This document shows, in pieces, positions 1,363 to 27,673 of a stretch of DNA of 35,746 nucleotides (position 1 is its first letter; each line of letters starts with the position of its first letter). The DNA comes from a virus. Lineage: Duplodnaviria; Heunggongvirae; Uroviricota; Caudoviricetes. The stretch lies in IMG/VR virus record IMGVR_UViG_2563366879_000004, positions 1 through 35,746 of that record; one strand, 5' to 3'. The translations under genes and the position numbers were made by a program. Below the pieces are notes generated by a model. It did not search any database. It worked only from the letters and a program-made list of their open reading frames with translations, and had not been told where the DNA came from.

Positions 1363-1446
1363 TTAATTTCGATTATTTTTCCCGGATGGAAAATTCTTAG
1401 AAACCGATCACATACAGCTGCATTTATTAAGGTTATCATCCGTTTC

Positions 1447-1533
1447 GCTGAAAAACATAACCCATAAAATGCTAGCTGTACCAGGAACCACCTCCTTAGC
1501 CTGTGTAATCTCCCTTACACGGGCTTATTTTTT
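1447..1533 (+). ncRNA. cyaR: CyaR (RyeE) Hfq-dependent sRNA; its 3' terminator hairpin contains the prophage att core
   Basis: Sequence gctgaaaaacataacccataaaatgctagctgtaccaggaaccacctccttagcctgtgtaatctcccttacacgggcttatttttt matches the recalled CyaR sequence; 10-bp stem (gcctgtgtaa / ttacacgggc with one G-U) plus U-run at the 3' end; located between yegQ and ogr as in E. coli. Confidence 0.8.
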
Positions 1534-8923: not shown

Positions 8924-9625
8924 ATGGATAATTTGGAAGAAAAGCTTTCTGCGAAGAAAGCTTTGTTTATTTCATCTGTAAGAAAATTTCTCTCGTCTAA
9001 AAACAGAGATAATTTCATAGATTGCATGATCAATGGTACCGCCTATTTCAATGAGGCAGAAAAAATGGTGGGTAATAGTAAGCTACAAGGTAAGCACAAC
9101 GATGGTTTATGGGTAACTGACTTAGCCGAGTCTTGTGAGGCAATACTTGAGTCTTATCTTCTGCATATTGAATTTATCAAGTCACACCATGAAGACATGA
9201 TGGGTGAAAGTTATAAGAAACCAAACCTGCATGCCCTTTCCAGTATGCAAAGAATGGTGAAGATGTATTGTCAGAAAGAATCATCCAGTCACCTGAGAGA
9301 AAGATTCTTAAAAGCTAACTTACCAACAAAGGGTTTTGACGTGGCTCACAGAGACGATATTGATACTGCAAATAAATATATAACATTAGGTATTGGGTCA
9401 GTATTAGTTATAATGTCATTTGCTTTTGCAATGTTCATGGATAATCCTTCGTATTTTAAAATCTTTATAATAAGATCAACTTTTGCTGTTGGCTGTGCAG
9501 CCTTGGCCTCATTTGTTCCTGGATGGATAAACGTTAACGTAAAAGGGTATGTAAAAGCAGGAGGAGCCATTGCCATTATTTTAATATTTTATTTCTTTAA
9601 CCCCCCTGCAATGCTGATTGGCTAA
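8924..9625 (+). CDS. Hypothetical 233-aa membrane protein (soluble N-terminal region of about 150 aa plus about three C-terminal transmembrane helices)
   Basis: ORF starts 4 nt after the upstream gene; C-terminal hydrophobic stretches (ITLGIGSVLVIMSFAFAMF, FAVGCAALASFVPGWI, GGAIAIILIFYFF); AT-rich. Confidence 0.6.
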   Translation: MDNLEEKLSAKKALFISSVRKFLSSKNRDNFIDCMINGTAYFNEAEKMVGNSKLQGKHNDGLWVTDLAESCEAILESYLLHIEFIKSHHEDMMGESYKKPNLHALSSMQRMVKMYCQKESSSHLRERFLKANLPTKGFDVAHRDDIDTANKYITLGIGSVLVIMSFAFAMFMDNPSYFKIFIIRSTFAVGCAALASFVPGWINVNVKGYVKAGGAIAIILIFYFFNPPAMLIG

Positions 9626-14101: not shown

Positions 14102-14449
14102 TCAACTCACAGGGATGGTTAATGAAAGTGGCTGGCCGGTGTCGTTGTGCTGGCCGGTTAACGTGACCGTCATTCGCCCGTCAAAGCTGCGCGCCGTAGT
14201 AACGGATGACAGGGTGACGCGGGGTTCCCATTTCAGCACCGCCATGTAACAGGCGACCTTAATCTGCAACTCAAGCGCCGGGGTCTGCGGCTGGTCAATC
14301 ATTGACGCCAGCAACGAGCCGTAATCACGACGCATCACCCGTGAGCCGACCGGCGTGCGCAGGATATCGCCGATACTCTGGCTGATATGCTCAAGGTCAG
14401 TGACAGTCAGGCCATCACTGCGATTCATTCCGAGATAACGTGCTGTCAT
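14102..14449 (-). CDS. W: Baseplate wedge protein gpW
   Basis: 115-aa ORF; P2 gpW length; ATGA overlap with the V stop. Confidence 0.85.
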   Translation of the reverse strand: MTARYLGMNRSDGLTVTDLEHISQSIGDILRTPVGSRVMRRDYGSLLASMIDQPQTPALELQIKVACYMAVLKWEPRVTLSSVTTARSFDGRMTVTLTGQHNDTGQPLSLTIPVS

Positions 14450-15081
14450 AGAGGACTCCCGGTTGTGCCGCCGCTGTCGCCGGGGTGTTTATGGGTATGC
14501 AGTACCTTACCGTTTGATGAGAGTTCACCGCCGGTGTGTTCAATGTTGCCGCGCATCGTCCCGCCCTTCTGTACTTCCAGCGTGCCGGTAATCAGCCTGT
14601 TGGTGCAGACCACCTCCGGTGTGTCCAGGGTGATGCGGGTTGACGCTTTCACCATGACCACCGGCACCGTGGCAGTAACAGAATCAGAAGCCGTCACGCT
14701 GGCCGTTTTAATTCCGCTTACCGTGAGCGCACTGGTTTCAGGTTCATACTCAATCACCGCCCCGTCAGGGAAACGGATATGCAGGGCATCCGCCGACGCA
14801 GACGGCGCGGGGTTATCGCCGGAATAAATCCCCGGCAGAACGAACGCCGTGTCGAGTTCACCGCCCACGGCCAGAATCAGCACCTGTTCCCCCACGGAAG
14901 GTGCCCACCATGTGCGCGAACGCCCGGCACGATGGGTCAGCCACTGAAGCCAGTCGGTGCACATGCCGCCGGTCTGCACACGGCAGCGACCGGCGTTAAG
15001 GTCGGTTTCGACGATAACGCCGGTGCGAATCATGTTGCGCAGTGCGCGCGCGAGTTCCTGAATATTTGCGAGAGTGTTCAT
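14446..15081 (-). CDS. V: Baseplate spike protein gpV
   Basis: ATG at 15081 gives 211 aa starting MNTLANIQELARAL, as recalled for P2 gpV; the supplied ORF extends to a TTG at 15117 with no SD. Confidence 0.8.
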   Translation of the reverse strand: MNTLANIQELARALRNMIRTGVIVETDLNAGRCRVQTGGMCTDWLQWLTHRAGRSRTWWAPSVGEQVLILAVGGELDTAFVLPGIYSGDNPAPSASADALHIRFPDGAVIEYEPETSALTVSGIKTASVTASDSVTATVPVVMVKASTRITLDTPEVVCTNRLITGTLEVQKGGTMRGNIEHTGGELSSNGKVLHTHKHPGDSGGTTGSPL

Positions 15082-15158
15082 AACGGGAAGGATGCCGCCG
15101 GACGATACCAGCAGCAATCATGGAGGACTCTGTCAGCCGTGACACAACATAATAAATA

Positions 15159-15914
15159 TTAGTTGTAACACTTCTCTATAATCTTCATACACTCCTCATG
15201 AGCTAAATCATGGCTGTCAAATTCTTTATTAAAAAAGAAGAAAAACGCCTTCTTAACCTGAGGCATTTCAATAAAAATAAATTCATCAACCTTATGAAAG
15301 AAATGAAAACTCTTGTTTGATGTTTCAAAAACCATCAAAGAATTATGTTTTTTATCCTTCCATTTCGACATCAGATTGCGTCGCGATTTTCTTATAATCC
15401 TGAAGACATCCTCCGGTGTCGTATCGACATTCCCCCAAAACATTGCAACCGGGAAGTTTGCAAGGAAAGGGATATAATCCCCCCCTTTATACCTGAGAAA
15501 GCGGGTCCGTAAATCCATTAATTGCAACTTAAAGCCCATGTATTGCAACCACCATATGATGCAATCATATTCATAATCTGTTAACTCATCGCCCCTCTTT
15601 TCCGTAAGAAATTTCTTCAGGTTATACTCAAACGCTCCCAGCAAATCAGAATTGCACACTCTGCATGCTGGTACAGTGGCTTTGATGTAATGAGTTGACT
15701 GATTATTCTTTTTATTAATTAAAAGTTTTTCAGCATTTGACTCAAAAGCCCACTGAGGAATAATGTGCTCACGAGTAATATCGCCAGAACTCCCGCATAA
15801 CACACATACATCAGCATTATGGTCAGCAATAATACAATCCATAACTTTCTTTTGAGAATGCTTTACTCTTTTTCTCAAAATGGAAAACTTTTTATCCACA
15901 AACACCCGTCTCAT
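15159..15914 (-). CDS. HNH-motif nuclease-domain protein (251 aa) at the orf30 variable position
   Basis: N-terminal CVLCG...REHIIP...N...CRVCN pattern (two CxxC pairs flanking an HNH-like core); ATGA overlap with the S stop; AT-rich relative to neighbours. Confidence 0.6.
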   Translation of the reverse strand: MRRVFVDKKFSILRKRVKHSQKKVMDCIIADHNADVCVLCGSSGDITREHIIPQWAFESNAEKLLINKKNNQSTHYIKATVPACRVCNSDLLGAFEYNLKKFLTEKRGDELTDYEYDCIIWWLQYMGFKLQLMDLRTRFLRYKGGDYIPFLANFPVAMFWGNVDTTPEDVFRIIRKSRRNLMSKWKDKKHNSLMVFETSNKSFHFFHKVDEFIFIEMPQVKKAFFFFFNKEFDSHDLAHEECMKIIEKCYN

Positions 15915-16369
15915 ATAACATCTTTCGATAGAATCACTAATAACTCCCTTTCTATCAATTGTATAGATTCCTTGTCAAAACCAAATAACTCACGAACAGG
16001 ATATTCCACCACAGCACTATTACGCCCCGGCTTATCCCTAAGCCCTAATTGATGTACCCGCGCAATTCGTTGTACTCCGCTGGCAAACGCCACCACCGCC
16101 GCACTCTCGCTACCTGTTGCTTTCATAAACCGGTTAGTGCGTAATTTCACAAACATTTCCCGCTTTATCCGGCCTTTCTTATTTCGCACTGGCTGGTTTT
16201 TTCTCGGTACATACGGCGTACCATCCGGGGCTTTTTGTAATTTAATTCGCTGCTGCTGGCGCTGGCGCAGTTTCTTCGCAATATCTACCGCCAGTCGCCG
16301 ACGCCCTGACGGTGACAGTGACTCAGTCAGTCCGGTCAGCCGGTCTTCAAAACGCTTAAACTCATTCAT
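15911..16369 (-). CDS. S: Tail completion protein gpS
   Basis: 152-aa ORF in P2 gpS position (recalled P2 length 150 aa). Confidence 0.8.
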   Translation of the reverse strand: MNEFKRFEDRLTGLTESLSPSGRRRLAVDIAKKLRQRQQQRIKLQKAPDGTPYVPRKNQPVRNKKGRIKREMFVKLRTNRFMKATGSESAAVVAFASGVQRIARVHQLGLRDKPGRNSAVVEYPVRELFGFDKESIQLIERELLVILSKDVI

Positions 16370-19383: not shown

Positions 19384-20127
19384 TTAACTGGCTTTCTTTT
19401 TCGGGCGTCCACGTTTTGCCGGTGTCACGCTCCGGGTCTTACGCGGGGCGCGGGTGACCGCTTTTGGCTGCGGCTCCGGCTTCGGTTTCAGCTCCCGCTC
19501 CAGTCGTTCAATCTCTTTTTTGACGCCTGCCTGACAGTCGAGCTGTGTCGCACGTTGCAGGTGAGCCAGCGCACCGGCGGCATCACCAGCGTCACGCAGA
19601 AACAGACCGGTGATTTTGTGCAGCTTTGCGCGCACTTCATCAGGCATGTCAGCCGTGGCGGTCAGTTCAAGGGTGTCCGTCAGCAGGCGGGTATCCACAG
19701 ACTCACCGGCAGCGTGGGCACGCATGGCCGCAAGCGCCACCTCCTCGGTGAACATGTACGGCGGGGTGCGGCGGTGTTTACCCGGCATGGTCAGACCGTA
19801 CTTCAGGGCATAACGGGCAATCTCCAGCGCACCGGCAATATCGCCGGTATCCAGACGCCACAGCATGACCGTCATCAGAATGTCATCCTGTGCACCTTTG
19901 CCCTGCTCCAGCACGCCGTTCACCCACGGCAACCAGAACGGCAGCAGTTCGCGCTTTTTCGCGGCCTTCAGCTCTTTTGAATAAATCGCTTTCAGTGTGC
20001 GCTGGTCTGCGGCCAGCTTGACCAGCATCTGCTCATAGACAGTTGCATGTCGCAGCGGGGCGGCTTCCCGCTGCGCGGTCATCGCTGCCGAGACCCGCAT
20101 CATGTGGCGCTGTGCGGGACTCGTCAT
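19384..20127 (-). CDS. M: Terminase small subunit / endonuclease gpM
   Basis: 247-aa ORF; P2 gpM length and position. Confidence 0.85.
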   Translation of the reverse strand: MTSPAQRHMMRVSAAMTAQREAAPLRHATVYEQMLVKLAADQRTLKAIYSKELKAAKKRELLPFWLPWVNGVLEQGKGAQDDILMTVMLWRLDTGDIAGALEIARYALKYGLTMPGKHRRTPPYMFTEEVALAAMRAHAAGESVDTRLLTDTLELTATADMPDEVRAKLHKITGLFLRDAGDAAGALAHLQRATQLDCQAGVKKEIERLERELKPKPEPQPKAVTRAPRKTRSVTPAKRGRPKKKAS

Positions 20128-20130
20128 CGG

Positions 20131-21204
20131 TTACGCTCCCGGCTCTGCGGTCGCTTTAGCCGGTGTGGAGAAATCACCGACCTTAATTTTTTCCACCAGA
20201 CAACCGGCGGCGTAGTCTTCCACCACGTAATCAATGTTCATTGACTCGTAGTTCTCCACGCGGTCGAGTTTCGGGTTTTCCACAATCACGCGGCGATGGC
20301 TGTCATCCATGTAGTAGATGGACAGATTTTCCAGCTTCGTGATGAGCATCGCATCCGCCGGGAAGTACGGAACGCGTACCGCCGGCAGGTTACCGATGCG
20401 TTTCTGGCTGATGATGACGTCAGCGGCCAGCATTTCGCTGTTGTCCTGCTCCTTGTTGATGATGGGGAAATACTTGTCCGCCAGTAGCTGGCGACCCACA
20501 ATCACCACAAGGTCAGGGTCTTCCTGATACCACGGTTCAATCAGGTTGTTGGTCGCATCCATCACCAGCGCGTCAAGGCTGGCATAATCACCGCCCTTAC
20601 CCACGCGGATGACCTCAGAGGTGGTGCGGCCTTCCTCGTCAGTGACCTTGCTCATCACGCGCGCCGGGGCTTCATTGCGGTATTTCTGCAGCCAGCCGAC
20701 GGCCACATCCTGCAGCATCGGATTGCTGCTGCGGTCAGAGGTTTCGGCACGCTTCACGCCGTTAAAACCGGCCATGATGAAATCAAGGGACTGGCGTTTG
20801 ATAATGGCGTTACGGATACGGAGCTGGAAATCCTGATAACGCGCCCACAGGTCCAGCGTTTTGTAGCGGATATAAAAATCGAAGTTAATCTGGTCGCATT
20901 CGTACTTACTGGACGCCAGCTTCGAGAAGTCCTTCGGCTGACGCTCGGTGCCACCGGCGGTGTCGGTGGTGCTGGCGATGGAGCCGGTGACACCGATGCC
21001 AATTTTTTCCCCTTTCATTTCGCTGACCGGCACAATATTGATGCGGGTCAGAAAGTCAGAGGACTCCTGCATGGTGTTCATCAGGGTCTGGGTGACCGAC
21101 GGTTCAACGGTGAATTTTTTCGACACATCACCGGCGTCGATGCCGTTCAGTTCGGCAACACGGGACAGGTAGGCATTAAATTTAAAGCGGGTTTCCTGGC
21201 GCAT
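20131..21204 (-). CDS. N: Major capsid protein gpN
   Basis: 357-aa ORF; P2 gpN length and position. Confidence 0.9.
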   Translation of the reverse strand: MRQETRFKFNAYLSRVAELNGIDAGDVSKKFTVEPSVTQTLMNTMQESSDFLTRINIVPVSEMKGEKIGIGVTGSIASTTDTAGGTERQPKDFSKLASSKYECDQINFDFYIRYKTLDLWARYQDFQLRIRNAIIKRQSLDFIMAGFNGVKRAETSDRSSNPMLQDVAVGWLQKYRNEAPARVMSKVTDEEGRTTSEVIRVGKGGDYASLDALVMDATNNLIEPWYQEDPDLVVIVGRQLLADKYFPIINKEQDNSEMLAADVIISQKRIGNLPAVRVPYFPADAMLITKLENLSIYYMDDSHRRVIVENPKLDRVENYESMNIDYVVEDYAAGCLVEKIKVGDFSTPAKATAEPGA

Positions 21205-21262
21205 AGTTTTTCCTGAAATTAAGGGTTAATCGTGAAGGTTTTCCCGGACTGACTGACGTCGG

Positions 21263-22117
21263 TCAGCAGTTCGTCATCAGGGCATCACCGCCACCGCCGG
21301 TGGCCTTGCTGCGGCGCTGCTGGGTCAGACTTTCGGTGCTGTCGAGACTGTTTTTCAGGCGGGTGAATGCCTGGCTGGTTTCATCCGCCCTGTCAGTCAC
21401 CTCCTGCTTAAGTGCGGAAAAAGCGGTTTCCATCTCAGCGAGGCGCTGCTCAGTGGCGCTCAGTTTTTCCTGCACATGTTCAGCAACAGCGGTCACCGCC
21501 TCATGCACGTCATTCAGACGGGCGTCATCGCTGGCCTGTTTGCGGCCAAAAATGGATTTCACCTTTTCGGTCAGGGCGGTGAACACGGTTTCAGGCAGGT
21601 CTTCAAATTCCAGCTCAACAGGCGTTGCCACTGAAATCAGGTTTTCAGGGCTTAATTTGAAGCGGTTCAGGGGGTTGTGTTTTGCCGTGCGGCAGAATTC
21701 CAGATATTCCGTGCCGAGGCTTGCCGGGTCATCGGTGACGGCCAGCCCCACCAGATAACATTTGCCGGTGTTGGCAAAGTTCGGCTGAATTTCCATTGAG
21801 GTATAGACCTTCTGCGCGGCCTTGTTCATCGCGATAAGGTCATCGGTCGGGGTGATTTTCGCAAACAGCGCCCATTTGCCTTTCAGCGCCGAATCATCGT
21901 CAATCTTTTCGGCCTTCAGTTCGACCACATCGCCATAACGTTTAAAAATACCGTCAGGCAGGATGCCGCGCAGATGTTCCAGGTTAATGCGGCAACCATA
22001 GACTCGCGGGTCAAAGGTTTCGGCCATTTCCTGAATATCCTGCGCACTGATGACACGCCCGTCACAGGTGTCACCCTCAACGCCGATACGAAAGAATTTT
22101 GAGACTTTTTTTGCCAT
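21263..22117 (-). CDS. O: Capsid scaffolding protein gpO
   Basis: ATG at 22117 gives 284 aa (MAKKVSKFFRIGVEG...), P2 gpO length; the supplied ORF is longer. Confidence 0.85.
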   Translation of the reverse strand: MAKKVSKFFRIGVEGDTCDGRVISAQDIQEMAETFDPRVYGCRINLEHLRGILPDGIFKRYGDVVELKAEKIDDDSALKGKWALFAKITPTDDLIAMNKAAQKVYTSMEIQPNFANTGKCYLVGLAVTDDPASLGTEYLEFCRTAKHNPLNRFKLSPENLISVATPVELEFEDLPETVFTALTEKVKSIFGRKQASDDARLNDVHEAVTAVAEHVQEKLSATEQRLAEMETAFSALKQEVTDRADETSQAFTRLKNSLDSTESLTQQRRSKATGGGGDALMTNC

Positions 22118-22290
22118 TGTCAGGAGTCCTGAATAGTGATTAGAGGAGTCACATGTCGGCATCAGTTTCCCGACGATGCGCATCCTCCGCCATCAGTCCC
22201 GGATGGCTTATCACTGACACAACAGCACCTTAGCGAATCGCAGGGCGCGACTCAGTAGCCTTGCCGTGTATTCATCACGGCGAGGTATTC
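22118..22290. promoter_or_regulatory. Divergent late-promoter region between O (minus) and P (plus); Ogr-dependent promoters expected
   Basis: Only intergenic space between divergently oriented late operons; individual -10/-35 or Ogr dyad elements could not be pinpointed by eye. Confidence 0.4.
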
Positions 22291-24063
22291 ATGACCATCA
22301 CCACAGACACCACTCTTTTACACGACCCGCGTCGTCAGGCGGCGCTGCTGTACTGGCAGGGGTTTTCCGTGCCGCAGATTGCCGCCATGTTGCAGATGAA
22401 ACGCCCGACGGTGCAGAGCTGGAAACAGCGCGACGGCTGGGACAGCGTTGCCCCCATCAGCCGTGTCGAAATGAGTCTGGAAGCGCGGCTGACCCAGCTC
22501 ATCATCAAACCGCAGAAAACCGGCGGTGACTTCAAGGAAATTGACCTGCTGGGACGCCAGATTGAACGACTGGCACGGGTCAACCGCTACAGCCAGACCG
22601 GCAACGAGGCAGACCTTAATCCGAACGTCGCTAACCGCAACAAAGGCGGGCGTCGCAAACCGAAAAAGAATTTTTTCAGTGACGAGGCCATCGAAAAGCT
22701 GGAGCAGATTTTCTTTGAGCAGTCTTTCGACTATCAGTTGCACTGGTATCGTGCCGGGCTTGAGCACCGCATCCGCGATATCCTGAAATCCCGCCAGATT
22801 GGCGCGACGTTTTATTTTTCCCGCGAGGCGCTGCTGCGCGCCCTGAAAACCGGCCATAACCAGATTTTTCTGTCGGCCAGTAAAACGCAGGCGTATGTGT
22901 TCCGTGAATACATCATCGCCTTTGCCCGGCTGGTTGACGTTGACCTGACCGGTGACCCGATTGTCCTGGGCAATAACGGCGCAAAACTGATTTTTCTCGG
23001 CACCAACTCCAACACCGCACAGAGCCATAACGGCGACCTGTACGTCGACGAGATTTTCTGGATCCCGAATTTTCAGGTACTGCGTAAGGTGGCATCTGGT
23101 ATGGCCTCACAGAGTCACCTGCGCTCGACCTATTTCTCCACCCCGTCCACGCTGGCGCACGACGCCTACCCGTTCTGGTCGGGTGAACTGTTTAACCGGG
23201 GACGCGCCAGCGCCGCCGAACGCGTGGAAATCGACGTCAGTCATAACGCCCTTGCCGGTGGGCTTCTCTGTGCGGACGGCCAGTGGCGACAGATTGTCAC
23301 CATTGAGGACGCCCTGAAAGGCGGCTGCACGCTGTTCGACATTGAGCAGCTCAAACGCGAAAACAGCGCCGACGATTTTAAAAACCTGTTCATGTGTGAA
23401 TTTGTTGACGACAAGGCATCGGTGTTCCCGTTCGAGGAGCTGCAACGCTGCATGGTCGACACGCTGGAAGAATGGGAAGACTATGCGCCGTTTGCCGCCA
23501 ATCCGTTCGGCTCCCGCCCGGTATGGATTGGTTACGACCCGTCACACCGTGGCGACAGCGCCGGATGCGTGGTACTGGCACCGCCGGTGGTGGCCGGTGG
23601 CAAATTCAGGATACTTGAGCGTCACCAGTGGAAAGGCATGGACTTTGCCACCCAGGCTGAATCCATCCGCAAACTCACCGAAAAATACAACGTCGAATAC
23701 ATCGGAATTGATGCCACCGGCCTCGGTGTCGGCGTGTTCCAGCTCGTGCGCTCGTTCTATCCCGCCGCGCGTGATATCCGCTACACGCCGGAAATGAAAA
23801 CCGCAATGGTGCTCAAGGCAAAAGACGTTATCCGCCGTGGCTGTCTGGAATACGACGTCAGCGCCACCGACATCACCAGCTCGTTTATGGCTATCCGCAA
23901 GACCATGACCAGCAGCGGACGCAGCGCCACGTATGAGGCCAGCCGCAGCGAGGAAGCCAGCCACGCCGACCTCGCCTGGGCGACCATGCACGCCCTGTTA
24001 AATGAGCCACTCACCGCCGGTATCAGCACCCCGCTGACATCCACCATTCTGGAGTTTTACTGA
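22291..24063 (+). CDS. P: Terminase large subunit (ATPase) gpP
   Basis: ATG at 22291 with GAGGT 5 nt upstream gives 590 aa (MTITTDTTLLHD...), P2 gpP length. Confidence 0.9.
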   Translation: MTITTDTTLLHDPRRQAALLYWQGFSVPQIAAMLQMKRPTVQSWKQRDGWDSVAPISRVEMSLEARLTQLIIKPQKTGGDFKEIDLLGRQIERLARVNRYSQTGNEADLNPNVANRNKGGRRKPKKNFFSDEAIEKLEQIFFEQSFDYQLHWYRAGLEHRIRDILKSRQIGATFYFSREALLRALKTGHNQIFLSASKTQAYVFREYIIAFARLVDVDLTGDPIVLGNNGAKLIFLGTNSNTAQSHNGDLYVDEIFWIPNFQVLRKVASGMASQSHLRSTYFSTPSTLAHDAYPFWSGELFNRGRASAAERVEIDVSHNALAGGLLCADGQWRQIVTIEDALKGGCTLFDIEQLKRENSADDFKNLFMCEFVDDKASVFPFEELQRCMVDTLEEWEDYAPFAANPFGSRPVWIGYDPSHRGDSAGCVVLAPPVVAGGKFRILERHQWKGMDFATQAESIRKLTEKYNVEYIGIDATGLGVGVFQLVRSFYPAARDIRYTPEMKTAMVLKAKDVIRRGCLEYDVSATDITSSFMAIRKTMTSSGRSATYEASRSEEASHADLAWATMHALLNEPLTAGISTPLTSTILEFY

Positions 24064-25434: not shown

Positions 25435-26235
25435 CTATTTCATCAGTCCTATAAAAGCTGCTGTCATGCTACCCAATGCACCAATAGCAGCAAATAACGT
25501 TGCCCAAAACATGCTTTTTTGGCTACGAATATTCTCATTATATCGTTGTTTTTCATTATTGAAGTGATTTAACGTATTAATTGCTTTTCCGGTGGGCTTA
25601 TAACCATCTCGAGTCTTTGAAATGTCCCCACTCTCTACAAGGGAATCCAGACATAAGCGAAGTTCTTTTATGAGTCGAGAATAATCATCATGGTAGATCC
25701 ATAAACGTCCTGCCACATCATTCATAATTAGAGTCTCACTGAATGGTTTTTCCCCTTGTTGCTCTCGATAAATTCTGACAATTGCAGCCAATACCGTCAT
25801 TACATCAGTTATCTCCTGCTTGCGTTGTCGATACAAATACTTCTCACGACTTAGCTTTTTATTTTGACGATCCGCTATTCTTCTAAATCTAAGTACATTA
25901 AAATAAGATAAATCATCCAATGAGTCAAACTTCAATTCATGCGCATGATAATAATAAATTCCAGAAAAGGAATTTGATGTAAGTCGTTCTGGTTTAAGAA
26001 TTGTATCAATATTGAAAGTTTTATTCTGATGATTCCACTTCTTAACCTTTATAATTCCGTTTGAATAACTATCAAAAAGATAGTCATTACCCTCGTCATC
26101 CTTAATGTAAACGGAATACATATCGTAATGAATGGCACTCTCATACATTAAACTAATTTTGCCATTTTCAGGGATCTTCTTTGACTCAAAAACTTTCAGA
26201 AACTTTACAACATCAACTTTATTTTTATGCCTCAT
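25435..26235 (-). CDS. Hypothetical 266-aa protein with a single C-terminal transmembrane anchor; candidate effector of the adjacent RT system
   Basis: AT-rich ORF 165 nt downstream of the RT gene on the same strand; C-terminus MFWATLFAAIGALGSMTAAFIGLMK is strongly hydrophobic; no recognised catalytic motif. Confidence 0.6.
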   Translation of the reverse strand: MRHKNKVDVVKFLKVFESKKIPENGKISLMYESAIHYDMYSVYIKDDEGNDYLFDSYSNGIIKVKKWNHQNKTFNIDTILKPERLTSNSFSGIYYYHAHELKFDSLDDLSYFNVLRFRRIADRQNKKLSREKYLYRQRKQEITDVMTVLAAIVRIYREQQGEKPFSETLIMNDVAGRLWIYHDDYSRLIKELRLCLDSLVESGDISKTRDGYKPTGKAINTLNHFNNEKQRYNENIRSQKSMFWATLFAAIGALGSMTAAFIGLMK

Positions 26236-26400: not shown

Positions 26401-27351
26401 TTAAACCGATGTATTTGCTTTCAACGTCAATACCTTCGATCTATAACGTTTTTCAATAACCCCCATTGAATATAAACGACCAAATAATTTCTTTGCTGTT
26501 CTTGTATCTTTAGCTTGTTCTACATCTTTTATTATTTTCCAAAGCTCTATTTCTCTAGCCATAAGATAATGCTGTTCGTTCCTAACCTTTAAGCTATCCC
26601 CAAATACTATCACTCCTGTCACTAGTTTAGGCTTATCCCCAGCATATAATTTCGTTTTAGTTGGATGCATAACGTGTCCATGCTTATTAATAATCTTACG
26701 AATCACGCTGCAAAACAATCGATTTACATTATCTCCAGAAAAAGTAAGATCATCGACATAAACTGTCATTTTCACACGAAACTTCTCACAAAGTTGATTC
26801 ATTTCATCAAACATTCTGGAATTTGCAAAATATGCTAATGGCATACTAATCCGACTACCCGTTGGCAATCGTTCATGACAGGTACATATATGAGATAAAA
26901 TATCAGCCACATCTGGCGACATTTTCATTATTGAGAAAAAGAAAGAAAATATCATTTCTCTTGTTGTTGACGGAAAAAAAGATCTAATATCTGTAGTCAT
27001 CAACTTCTGATGATTGAGATGTGCTTTAGCATTTGTTATGTTAGAGCAACTTTTTTTACCAGAGTGTAAATATTCGGGCATAGCTATACGCAATAATAGA
27101 CTCGCAATACGTGTATGCACTACATCTAATTTTTCTAAAGGCTTTTGTATTTTCCGTATTTTATTTTTTTTAGAAAGCTGTTCAAAAATAGAGTAATTAC
27201 CCTCATCCCTTTTCAAAACTGATAGGTCATTGATACTAACGCAGAGCAAGCTAGCCAACTTTTTTTTACTTTTAAGTTTATAAAGTGGCGAATCCGTAAT
27301 AGGATAAGATTTATTTTTAGTTGAAACCTTCAGCTTAATCCTTTTTTTCAT
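26401..27351 (-). CDS. Retron-type reverse transcriptase (316 aa)
   Basis: RT motifs in order: NAKAH (retron NAxxH), DIRSFFPS, LPTGSRISMPLAYF (LPxG...SxP), YVDD catalytic box (VYVDDLTFS), and KLVTGVIV (retron VTG motif); size typical of retron RTs; very AT-rich. Confidence 0.8.
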   Translation of the reverse strand: MKKRIKLKVSTKNKSYPITDSPLYKLKSKKKLASLLCVSINDLSVLKRDEGNYSIFEQLSKKNKIRKIQKPLEKLDVVHTRIASLLLRIAMPEYLHSGKKSCSNITNAKAHLNHQKLMTTDIRSFFPSTTREMIFSFFFSIMKMSPDVADILSHICTCHERLPTGSRISMPLAYFANSRMFDEMNQLCEKFRVKMTVYVDDLTFSGDNVNRLFCSVIRKIINKHGHVMHPTKTKLYAGDKPKLVTGVIVFGDSLKVRNEQHYLMAREIELWKIIKDVEQAKDTRTAKKLFGRLYSMGVIEKRYRSKVLTLKANTSV

Positions 27352-27637
27352 TTCTTTTACTTACCCACTCTAGTATATCCAGAACTTTCCCTGCCAGTTT
27401 TAAACGTAAACTTTTGGATAATCGTCCTTGTGTCCCTAATGATTCTGAAAAAAAGACCAAAGAGGATACTGGCATGTCGAAATGGGAAGCATAACGCTGC
27501 AAAATATCAATCGACGGCACCCATAGTCCGCTTTCAATCTCTACTATTCTGCTTTTTGGAATACCTAAAGATGATGATAAGTCAACTATTGATTCTTTAT
27601 GGTATTGCCTTATTAAACGAAGGGCTTTATGCAACAT
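27335..27637 (-). CDS. XRE-family helix-turn-helix protein (about 100 aa) overlapping the RT start
   Basis: HTH-like segment IVDLSSSLGIPKSRIVEIESG; preferred ATG at 27637 has GGAG 6 nt upstream (the supplied ORF starts at 27649); 3' end overlaps the RT start by 17 nt, suggesting translational coupling. Confidence 0.65.
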   Translation of the reverse strand: MLHKALRLIRQYHKESIVDLSSSLGIPKSRIVEIESGLWVPSIDILQRYASHFDMPVSSLVFFSESLGTQGRLSKSLRLKLAGKVLDILEWVSKRNEKKD

Positions 27638-27673
27638 AGGCAACTCCATCTTGTTGAAACTAGGGAGGACGCA

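What the first reader, a model, noticed from the sequence alone, without database searches (positions are those of the whole stretch)
15159..15914. HNH-motif nuclease-domain gene at the orf30 slot, translationally coupled to tail gene S
Seen in sequence: a 251-aa ORF whose ATG overlaps the S stop (ATGA), with an N-terminal CVLCG...REHIIP...N...CRVCN arrangement typical of HNH/His-Me finger nucleases, and a C-terminal region of about 170 aa of unknown function; AT-rich compared with S and V. Established: orf30 is one of the variable positions of P2-like genomes. Inference: it could be an anti-phage nuclease, a homing endonuclease or a packaging-associated HNH; the late-operon coupling means it is expressed during lytic growth.
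Basis: partly seen in the sequence, partly recalled or inferred. Interest (0 to 1): 0.5.

Follow-up and report, generated by a model that had tools for sequence, protein, structure and literature searches.

The report
Uncharacterised HNH nuclease in P2 prophage
A P2-like prophage of E. coli carries, between two tail genes, a conserved gene for an HNH-type DNA-cutting enzyme of an undescribed family; it most likely protects the host against other phages, but nothing here tests that.

Summary
ORF 15159-15914 (-) is real, AT-rich (GC 0.365 against 0.54-0.60 in the flanks) and abuts tail gene S. Its C-x2-C...E-H...N...C-x2-C-N motif is invariant in homologues down to about 25% identity. It reaches no curated family threshold (Pfam HNH_5 14.9 bits against 27.5; no significant PADLOC hit) and has no significant PDB or BFVD fold match. 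Residues 32-220 are homologous to a large unannotated superfamily (hhalign E 6e-25).

The gene is in 77 of 5426 complete E. coli genomes, about 4.5% of those with a P2-like tail region, always in the S-V slot. Among 50,697 phage records only phage R18C has it, published as a hypothetical protein. P2's own Orf30 is unrelated and lies on the opposite strand.

In sister prophages the same slot holds a Pycsar system or a PADLOC candidate ATPase. Distant relatives sit in integrase-bearing islands, some next to defence genes. The best reading is therefore a prophage-borne defence nuclease (confidence 0.45).

Three facts keep a lytic-phase role open. No promoter of its own is detectable, it is wired to the late O operon, and it co-diverges with the tail genes (dN/dS 0.17). 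Packaging-associated HNH is rejected and homing endonuclease is unlikely. Interest is moderate.

The parts
15159..15914 (-). ORF for a 251-aa HNH-like protein (246 aa if translation starts at GTG 15899). It is the last co-oriented gene after tail gene S.
   Evidence: ORF list. PHROG 10503 full-length match, 598 bits, function unknown. 96% identical to the R18C hypothetical protein. 44 homologue clusters. dN/dS 0.17.
15651..15806 (-). HNH (His-Me finger) core, residues 37-88: CxxC, E49-H50, N70, CxxC-N88. It has about 22 more residues between the catalytic His and the second CxxC than the solved HNH 4H9D.
   Evidence: Invariant columns. Motif census 147/192. Pfam HNH_5 sub-threshold in this protein (14.9 bits) and in 9 of 10 distant full-length relatives. 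Collinear two-piece match to PDB 4H9D, E 0.09. AF2 strands 46-50 and 80-84 followed by helix 85-105.
15162..15650 (-). C-terminal helical plus four-stranded beta module (residues 89-251) with no known fold match. It includes a conserved basic stretch (R175, K184, K186, K189).
15911..16369 (-). Tail completion gene S, mosaic. The first ~105 nt are P2-like. The rest is a divergent allele, and its last ~135 nt (15914-16050, GC 0.38) travel with the HNH gene.
   Evidence: DNA alignment A2. The 348-nt divergent 3' segment of S occurs at >=80% coverage in 79 E. coli genomes, against 77 with the HNH gene; the overlap of the two sets was not checked genome by genome. The last 45 aa of gpS are 64% identical to the Klebsiella HNH-type but 32-40% to the P2, Pycsar and PDC-S59 types.
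15131..15150 (-). Sequence resembling P2's annotated pV activator-binding site (ATGTTGT...ACA). It starts 9 nt after the HNH stop codon, upstream of V.
   Evidence: Compared with the annotated site in NC_001895 and with the L-413C S-V junction. There is no exact TGT-N12-ACA here.
14446..15081 (-). Baseplate spike gene V (ATG at 15081), the downstream boundary of the variable slot.
   Evidence: Annotated V in R18C and L-413C aligns here.

Best explanation
The gene encodes a catalytically competent, zinc-stabilised HNH (His-Me finger) DNA nuclease. It is fused to a conserved helical/beta module of unknown fold. It is accessory cargo of the S-V variable slot of P2-like phages.

The most likely role is a single-gene anti-phage or anti-mobile-element effector carried by the prophage. 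In this model the non-HNH module holds the nuclease inactive or gives it target specificity. Foreign DNA, or in an abortive mode the cell's own DNA, is cut when a competing element infects.

Shown: the motif, its conservation, purifying selection, slot variability, and defence cargo in the same slot elsewhere. Inferred: nuclease activity, the defence role, and the way it is switched on.
For: 1. Intact and invariant catalytic and zinc ligands across the family. There is a weak collinear match to the solved HNH 4H9D.
2. dN/dS is 0.17 against R18C and against an E. coli prophage copy, similar to R (0.08-0.15) and V (0.20) and below S (0.31-0.42).
3. The slot is variable in E. coli. The HNH gene is in 77 genomes, 4.5% of the 1696 genomes matching the tail region. 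In an evenly spaced sample of those genomes, about two thirds of slots are empty by record span and about a fifth hold a P2-orf30-sized insert.
4. The same slot carries a complete Pycsar pair in strain ST2747 (PycC 1.5e-128, PycTM 8.5e-29). That pair is co-oriented and starts 15 nt after S, as here. Strain GB089 carries a PADLOC candidate ATPase, PDC-S59, at 1.5e-31.
5. P2-like variable loci are established defence hotspots (PMC9122126). PMC13586616 reports 16% of P2 defence systems 'downstream of GpL', within the tail genes.
6. The ~40%-identity clade is not phage-tail linked. It lies in variable regions where integrase is the commonest neighbouring family. One copy is immediately next to a type IV restriction enzyme and another next to a helicase-like protein matching Mokosh/PDC-S37 models. 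One is 4.5 kb from a CBASS operon.
7. The family is absent from 50,697 phage records except R18C and from 72,556 plasmids. It is essentially a gene of chromosomal prophages and islands.
8. HNH_5 (PF14279) is one of the two HNH accessions used to annotate ATPase-associated defence proteins in PMC11464382.
Against: - No significant hit to any PADLOC v2 model for this protein or for ten 300-600-aa relatives.
- No sigma-70 consensus promoter upstream on the coding strand. The gene abuts S with no terminator, and the pV promoter lies downstream. Expression in the lysogen is therefore unproven.
- Pairwise identity of the HNH protein tracks that of R, S, V and W across eight P2-like phages (r 0.89-0.94). 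That indicates long residence rather than the rapid turnover typical of defence cargo.
- The gene is also carried by the virulent phage R18C (PMC6823313).
- The defence association of distant relatives rests on a few loci and on isolated HMM hits.
Confidence: 0.45

Rival explanations
1. It is a late-expressed phage nuclease that serves the P2-like phage during lytic growth. It would be made from the Ogr/Delta-dependent O operon together with the tail proteins. It could act on competing DNA such as a P4-type satellite or a co-infecting phage, or on host DNA.
For: - It is the last co-oriented cistron after S, with a 12-nt gap or an overlap and no terminator. The pV activator-like site is immediately downstream.
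- It co-diverges with the neighbouring tail genes and is under purifying selection.
- It is retained in the viable, virulent phage R18C.
- AT-richness persists in all lineages even though dS is saturated.
Against: - About 95% of E. coli P2-like prophages lack it, so it is dispensable.
- The ~40% clade and the 300-360-aa relatives are chromosomal and not phage-linked.
- A Pycsar system sits in the same place and orientation. That layout is therefore compatible with a defence role.
- No satellite or host target can be named from sequence.
Confidence: 0.22
2. It is a free-standing homing endonuclease (or marker-exclusion nuclease). It would cut the S-V region of P2-like genomes that lack it and spread by recombinational repair, carrying its own cleavage-resistant S 3' end with it.
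For: - Presence/absence polymorphism at one precise site between conserved genes.
- Same orientation as the flanks and start codon at the upstream stop, as I recall for T4 mob and seg genes (not checked here).
- AT-rich.
- The divergent S 3' segment occurs in almost the same number of E. coli genomes as the gene (79 against 77).
- HNH_5 falls in group 1 of the His-Me classification, which also holds the T4 Mob homing endonucleases (PMC5714182).
Against: - tblastn finds it in only one isolated phage among 50,697 records.
- No NUMOD, IENR1, AP2 or HNH_3 domains.
- The middle part of the divergent S allele is shared with Pycsar and PDC-S59 cargo, and every cargo type has its own gpS tail. The linkage therefore reflects cassette exchange in general.
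- The gpS tail is 33% identical to P2's, far more diverged than a co-conversion tract would be.
- It co-diverges with the flanking genes and has dN/dS 0.17, not an invasion-and-decay cycle.
- Relatives are single genes in bacterial islands.
Confidence: 0.12
3. It is a non-catalytic or structural protein: a zinc-finger DNA- or protein-binding factor, or a tail-associated component, that keeps an HNH-like scaffold.
For: - It lies between tail genes S and V.
- It is below every curated HNH threshold.
- There is no significant structural match.
Against: - The catalytic E-H, the Asn and the terminal Asn are invariant, not only the zinc cysteines.
- Most P2-like virions assemble without it.
- Relatives occur outside phages.
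Confidence: 0.05

Closest known systems
HNH_5 (PF14279) / group 1 His-Me finger nucleases, e.g. Geobacter metallireducens HNH endonuclease (PDB 4H9D)
   Same: The order of motifs is the same: CxxC, then (D/E)-H, then CxxC-N. Both halves align collinearly with 4H9D. Sub-threshold HNH_5 hits are consistent across the family.
   Different: Scores are 14-24 bits against a gathering threshold of 27.5. About 22 extra residues lie between the catalytic His and the second CxxC. There is an N-terminal helix and a ~160-aa C-terminal module with no known fold.
Bacteriophage R18C ORF16 (YP_009883387.1, PHROG 10503)
   Same: 96% identical, same slot, same flanks. This is the same gene.
   Different: It was published only as a hypothetical protein for which PSI-BLAST gave no information (PMC6823313). 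R18C is virulent, whereas the window holds an integrated prophage.
Other cargo of the P2 S-V slot: P2 Orf30, Pycsar (E. coli ST2747), PDC-S59 ATPase (E. coli GB089)
   Same: Same insertion point between the S stop and the pV promoter. Pycsar has the same orientation and starts 15 nt after S.
   Different: There is no sequence relationship. P2 Orf30 and the PDC-S59 ATPase lie on the opposite strand, and P2 has an O-operon terminator before orf30.
HNH effectors of defence systems such as Septu PtuB and retron-associated HNH
   Same: PF14279 (HNH_5) is one of the two HNH accessions used to annotate ATPase-associated defence proteins in PMC11464382. That these proteins are Septu PtuB and retron HNH effectors is my own identification, not checked here.
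   Different: By my recollection those effectors work with a partner ATPase. Here no partner gene is adjacent, and no PADLOC model matches significantly.
Free-standing phage HNH homing endonucleases (T4 MobA-E, I-HmuI)
   Same: An HNH gene inserted between conserved phage genes, co-oriented, AT-rich, and patchily distributed.
   Different: No NUMOD or HNH_3 modules. It is almost absent from isolated phages, stable and co-diverging with its host phage lineage, and its relatives are in bacterial islands.

Membership tests
His-Me finger / HNH nucleases (Pfam HNH_5, PF14279) | Two CxxC pairs forming a Cys4 zinc site around the beta-beta-alpha core | tested here: met
   C37, C40, C84 and C87 are invariant in 18 homologues and in 48 diverse relatives. 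The pattern is present in 147/192 relatives.
His-Me finger / HNH nucleases (Pfam HNH_5, PF14279) | Catalytic His preceded by an acidic residue, an intervening Asn, and a terminal Asn/His metal ligand | tested here: met
   E49, H50 and N88 are invariant in both alignments. N70 is invariant in the close family and is the consensus residue in the wide alignment.
His-Me finger / HNH nucleases (Pfam HNH_5, PF14279) | Score at or above the curated gathering threshold | tested here: not met
   14.9 bits against 27.5 for this protein. Relatives score 14-24 bits.
His-Me finger / HNH nucleases (Pfam HNH_5, PF14279) | Beta-beta-alpha-metal fold | tested here: inconclusive
   AF2 gives strands 46-50 and 80-84 followed by helix 85-105. 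No significant structural match to an HNH structure was found, and model coordinates could not be inspected.
His-Me finger / HNH nucleases (Pfam HNH_5, PF14279) | Metal-dependent nuclease activity | not testable with these tools
   Needs purified protein.
Known anti-phage defence systems (PADLOC-DB v2) | Match to a defence-protein model | tested here: not met
   Only PDC-M01B at E 0.025. None for ten 300-600-aa relatives.
Known anti-phage defence systems (PADLOC-DB v2) | Location in a hotspot or island that carries validated defence systems | tested here: met
   Pycsar and PDC-S59 occupy the same S-V slot. This prophage also has a type VI retron at the tin/old locus. Distant relatives lie next to a type IV REase, a Mokosh-like helicase and CBASS.
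Known anti-phage defence systems (PADLOC-DB v2) | Expression in the lysogen | tested here: inconclusive
   No consensus promoter upstream on the minus strand. There is only a TTGACA in the S 3' end with a poor -10.
Known anti-phage defence systems (PADLOC-DB v2) | Protection against phage infection | not testable with these tools
   Needs plaque or liquid infection assays.
Free-standing homing endonuclease | Presence/absence polymorphism at one site between conserved genes in close relatives | tested here: met
   97% identical flanks with and without the gene.
Free-standing homing endonuclease | DNA-binding modules typical of phage homing endonucleases (NUMOD, IENR1, AP2, HNH_3) | tested here: not met
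   No such Pfam hit, even at E 10.
Free-standing homing endonuclease | A co-conversion tract or resistant target specific to the endonuclease-bearing allele | tested here: inconclusive
   A divergent S 3' end accompanies the gene, but Pycsar and PDC-S59 cargo also have their own S ends and share the middle of the allele.
Free-standing homing endonuclease | Horizontal spread with decay rather than co-divergence with the host genome | tested here: not met
   Pairwise identity tracks R, S, V and W (r 0.89-0.94). dN/dS is 0.17.
Terminase-associated HNH (HK97 gp74 type) | Adjacent to terminase or portal genes and present throughout the phage group | tested here: not met
   It lies between tail genes S and V, about 6 kb from the nearest terminase-size ORFs (19384-24063). 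It is present in 77 of 1696 E. coli genomes with a P2-like tail region.
P2 Orf30 | Sequence similarity and gene orientation | tested here: not met
   BLASTP E 2.8. P2 Orf30 is on the opposite strand, behind a terminator.

The most novel reading that the evidence does not exclude
The nuclease is gated by transcription rather than by a sensor domain. It is the last cistron of the Ogr/Delta-dependent O operon of a repressed prophage. It would therefore be made only when an incoming P4-type satellite (Delta) or a heteroimmune P2-like phage (Ogr) transactivates the prophage's late promoters. It would then destroy the intruder's DNA or abort the cell. That would make it a helper-phage-encoded defence against satellites and superinfection. 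It would also explain why the gene is wired to the tail genes and co-diverges with them.
Probability: 0.08. Interest if true: 0.75.

Novelty: new variant of a known kind. Interest (0 to 1): 0.42.

Why it matters
P2-like prophages occur in about a third of complete E. coli genomes. Two of their variable loci (tin/old and Z/fun) have already yielded many defence systems.

This work shows that the third classical variable position, between S and V, carries Pycsar and a PADLOC candidate in some prophages. In about 4.5% of E. coli P2-like prophages it carries an HNH-type nuclease that belongs to a large unannotated superfamily (886 representatives at E <= 0.001).

If the nuclease is defensive, it adds a compact single-gene system and a handle on that whole superfamily. 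If it instead acts in the late lytic phase, it would be a rare accessory nuclease integrated into a tail operon. Either outcome can be tested directly with the viable phage R18C.

Tried and rejected
- **Curated libraries.** Pfam, NCBIfam, PHROGs and PADLOC gave no functional assignment above threshold.
- **PDB by sequence.** The full-length profile found nothing. The HNH-only profile gave only weak collinear HNH hits.
- **Names of distant relatives.** Only 'hypothetical protein' or 'HNH endonuclease'.
- **Literature.** The R18C paper notes the ORF as hypothetical. The P2 hotspot papers do not mention an HNH gene or dissect the S-V slot.
- **P2 Orf30 homology.** Rejected.
- **Packaging HNH.** Rejected on position, size and rarity.
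- **Promoter of its own.** Not found with the consensus scan.
- **Exact TGT-N12-ACA late-promoter site.** Absent from the slot. The site was identified only by resemblance to P2's annotated pV activator site.
- **Plasmids.** No homologue.
- **Look-up of P0122.** Failed.
- **Rfam and tRNA scans.** Nothing in the slot.

Full report
**Observation**

The minus-strand ORF 15159..15914 (251 aa) is present. Its ATG overlaps the TGA of the upstream S-like ORF 15911..16369.

GC drops to 0.33-0.40 over 15150-16050, against 0.55-0.62 in the flanks. The gene is 0.365, V is 0.60 and the 5' end of S is 0.54.

The start codon is ambiguous. In 16 of 18 aligned homologues the protein begins at a Met aligned with V6. 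R18C has ATG at that position, and R18C and RefSeq E. coli annotate a 741-nt CDS from it. In this window the codon is GTG (15899). The gene therefore starts either in the ATGA overlap or 12 nt after the S stop, and close coupling to S is plausible in both cases.

**Genomic setting**

The window is an E. coli chromosomal segment carrying a complete P2-like prophage beside the CyaR sRNA gene.

**What the protein is**

- No curated family is reached. Pfam gives only sub-threshold Endonuclease_1 (E 0.0086) and HNH_5 (14.9 bits against 27.5). NCBIfam has nothing relevant, and PADLOC only PDC-M01B at E 0.025. PHROG 10503 (unknown function) matches full length.
- The motif is genuine. C37, C40, E49, H50, N70, C84, C87 and N88 are invariant in 18 homologues down to 41% identity. 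C, C, E, H, C, C and N stay invariant in 48 relatives down to 23% identity.
- The pattern C-x2-C-x(7-11)-EH-x(33-34)-C-x2-C-N occurs in 147 of 192 retrieved proteins.
- Nine of ten distant full-length relatives, and seven of ten 300-600-aa relatives, give sub-threshold HNH_5 hits at the same place.
- An HNH-only profile matches both halves of the motif collinearly in the solved HNH endonuclease 4H9D (E 0.09). It also matches three other PDB sequences deposited as 'HNH nuclease domain-containing protein'.
- Compared with 4H9D there are about 22 more residues between the catalytic His and the second CxxC.
- The AlphaFold2 model (pLDDT 77, pTM 0.81) has an N-terminal helix, then strands 46-50 and 80-84 followed by helix 85-105. 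After that come further helices, a four-stranded sheet (193-227) and a C-terminal helix.
- The non-HNH part is not an orphan. hhalign aligns residues 32-220 with a family of 300-360-aa proteins at 99.6% probability, E 6e-25.
- A profile search of 1.84 billion representatives finds 886 proteins at E <= 0.001. Named members are 'hypothetical protein' or 'HNH endonuclease'.

**Distribution**

- The gene is in 77 of 5426 complete E. coli genomes, always chromosomal.
- 1696 genomes match the surrounding P2-like tail region, so about 4.5% of them carry the gene.
- Among 50,697 phage records only R18C has it (96% aa identity). No plasmid has it.
- The R18C paper describes it as a 741-bp hypothetical ORF replacing P2 orf30, with no PSI-BLAST information (PMC6823313).
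- Homologues of 54-74% identity sit in the same S-V slot of P2-like prophages of Klebsiella and Kluyvera, of a soil-metagenome phage, and of two contigs labelled with unlikely hosts. They start 11-16 nt after S. Clusters in the same identity range are named from Yersinia, Enterobacter, Kosakonia and Erwinia, but their contexts were not examined.
- A clade of 36-41% identity occurs in Vibrio, Photobacterium, Shewanella, Psychromonas, Halomonas, Bacteroidota and others. It is not next to P2 tail genes.

**The slot**

In P2 itself, the O-operon terminator, a 261-aa Orf30 on the opposite strand and the pV activator site lie between S and V. Orf30 is unrelated to the HNH protein.

In this window there is no terminator between S and the gene. 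A sequence resembling the pV activator site (15131-15150) begins 9 nt after its stop. By inference, the gene is the last cistron of the late O operon. No consensus sigma-70 promoter lies upstream on the coding strand.

In an evenly spaced sample of E. coli P2-like regions, about two thirds of slots are empty by record span. About a fifth carry an insert of P2-orf30 size, and the rest carry other cargo or IS elements.

Two alternative cargoes were identified:
- A complete Pycsar pair in strain ST2747 (PycC 1.5e-128, PycTM 8.5e-29), co-oriented and starting 15 nt after S.
- A 414-aa ATPase in strain GB089 matching PADLOC candidate PDC-S59 (1.5e-31), on the opposite strand.

The S-V position therefore behaves as a defence-cargo hotspot. 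This fits the literature on P2 hotspots (PMC9122126; PMC13586616), which does not resolve this slot.

**Mosaic S gene**

- The S gene is identical in type to P2 and L-413C for about 105 nt and then diverges to its end.
- gpS residues 36-152 are 46% identical to P2 gpS but 70% identical to gpS of the Klebsiella HNH-bearing phage.
- The last 45 residues are specific to the cargo type. Identity is 32-40% between the HNH, Pycsar, PDC-S59 and P2 types, but 64% between the E. coli and Klebsiella HNH types.
- In E. coli the 348-nt divergent 3' segment of S is found at >=80% coverage in 79 genomes, against 77 with the gene. A partial match (the middle of the allele only) occurs in a further 18; the three such prophages inspected or tabulated carry Pycsar (ST2747) or the PDC-S59 ATPase (GB089).
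- The last 135 nt of S are AT-rich (0.38-0.41) in all three HNH lineages examined.
- The mobile unit is thus 'S 3' end plus cargo', exchanged by recombination inside S and at pV.

**Evolution**

dN/dS is 0.17 against R18C and against a RefSeq prophage copy. This is similar to R (0.08-0.15) and V (0.20) and below S (0.31-0.42). Across eight P2-like phages, pairwise identity of the HNH protein tracks that of R, S, V and W (r 0.89-0.94). The gene is therefore a long-term resident of one P2-like sub-lineage and not a recent arrival. It has kept a GC of 0.33-0.365 throughout.

**Context of distant relatives**

- Integrase is the commonest Pfam family among 119 neighbouring ORFs of 21 loci.
- PADLOC hits among the neighbours include PDC-S31 (two ORFs), PDC-M02A/B, a type IV methyl-directed restriction enzyme, Mokosh-like helicase models and PDC-S37.
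- The type IV enzyme and the helicase-like protein are the immediate neighbours of the HNH homologue in Labilibaculum and in Shewanella.
- One metagenomic relative lies between integrases, 4.5 kb from a CBASS operon and near a BrnT/BrnA pair.
- Other loci are uninformative.

**Interpretation**

The best-supported reading (0.45) is a prophage-borne single-gene defence nuclease. It has a catalytically intact HNH domain and an uncharacterised regulatory or specificity module. It sits in a slot that carries validated defence systems in sister prophages. Its family lives in prophages and islands rather than in isolated phages or plasmids.

The main tensions are three: no detectable promoter of its own, wiring to the late operon, and stable co-divergence with the tail genes. 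These support the rival that it acts late in lytic growth for the phage (0.22). That rival includes the speculative variant in which satellite or superinfecting activators switch it on in a lysogen (0.08, counted within the 0.22).

A homing endonuclease (0.12) fits the precise, polymorphic, co-oriented insertion and the linked S allele. It is disfavoured for four reasons:
- the family is almost absent from isolated phages;
- typical homing DNA-binding modules are missing;
- the same S-allele behaviour is seen with other cargo;
- the gene is under purifying selection and co-diverges with its flanks.

A terminase-associated HNH is rejected on position, size and rarity. A non-catalytic role (0.05) is unlikely because the catalytic residues are invariant.

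**Verdict**

The feature is real, and the gene has already been noticed in print, but only as hypothetical. It is a divergent new family within the His-Me finger superfamily with a novel accessory module. Its function is unproven, and interest is moderate.

Noticed in passing
window 26401-27649 (-): The tin/old hotspot of this prophage carries a type VI retron. The reverse transcriptase (26401-27351) matches PADLOC RT_VI at 1.8e-105 and the HTH protein (27335-27649) matches HTH_VI at 2.5e-31. Rfam found no msr/msd RNA at gathering threshold.
   Followed up: partly
window 25435-26235 (-) and 8924-9625 (+): A 266-aa ORF beside the retron and a 233-aa ORF at the Z/fun position have no Pfam or PADLOC hit. 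Both are further unknown cargo in known P2 hotspots.
   Followed up: partly
window 1445-1530 (+): CyaR/RyeE sRNA gene (Rfam 100.7 bits) lies just outside the prophage end, so the prophage sits at the cyaR locus of E. coli.
   Followed up: no
window 15914-16262 (-); L005, L010, L011: gpS is mosaic and its last ~45 residues are specific to the cargo type. Identity is 32-40% between the HNH, Pycsar, PDC-S59 and P2 types, but 64% between the E. coli and Klebsiella HNH types. These S 3' ends are AT-rich (0.38-0.41) and might hold cargo promoters.
   Followed up: partly
L011 441-2343 (E. coli ST2747); L010 991-2235 (E. coli GB089): Other E. coli P2-like prophages carry a complete Pycsar system, or a PDC-S59-like ATPase, in the same S-V slot. 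This position does not seem to be singled out as a defence hotspot in the papers read.
   Followed up: yes
L005 6926-7576 (-): In Klebsiella the HNH homologue is followed by an additional 216-aa ORF on the opposite strand, before V. It has no Pfam or PADLOC hit.
   Followed up: partly
window 15737-15764 (+): A sigma-70-like site (TTGACT, 16 nt, AATAAT; 10 of 12 matches) lies antisense inside the HNH gene. It may be a chance match in AT-rich DNA.
   Followed up: no
L009 1440-2225 (P2 NC_001895): The R18C paper calls P2 ORF30 '261-bp-long'. The P2 record annotates a 786-nt, 261-aa CDS on the strand opposite to the late genes.
   Followed up: yes
L019, L020: Contigs labelled 'Sporobacter termitidis' MAG and 'Chryseobacterium sp.' carry P2-like tail genes 59-82% identical to those of this E. 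coli prophage, together with the HNH gene. They are probably mis-binned or contaminant contigs.
   Followed up: no
E. coli hits H107 and H141: In two sampled genomes the record span is about 1.8 kb longer than the query and ISEc12 (IS21 family) genes are annotated within the matched P2-like tail region; the insertion point was not located.
   Followed up: no
E. coli hits H57, H59-H61; P0038, P0039: Some E. coli copies of the HNH gene are split or truncated: an 11-nt shorter match annotated as two hypothetical proteins, and clusters of 170-181 aa. These indicate occasional decay.
   Followed up: no
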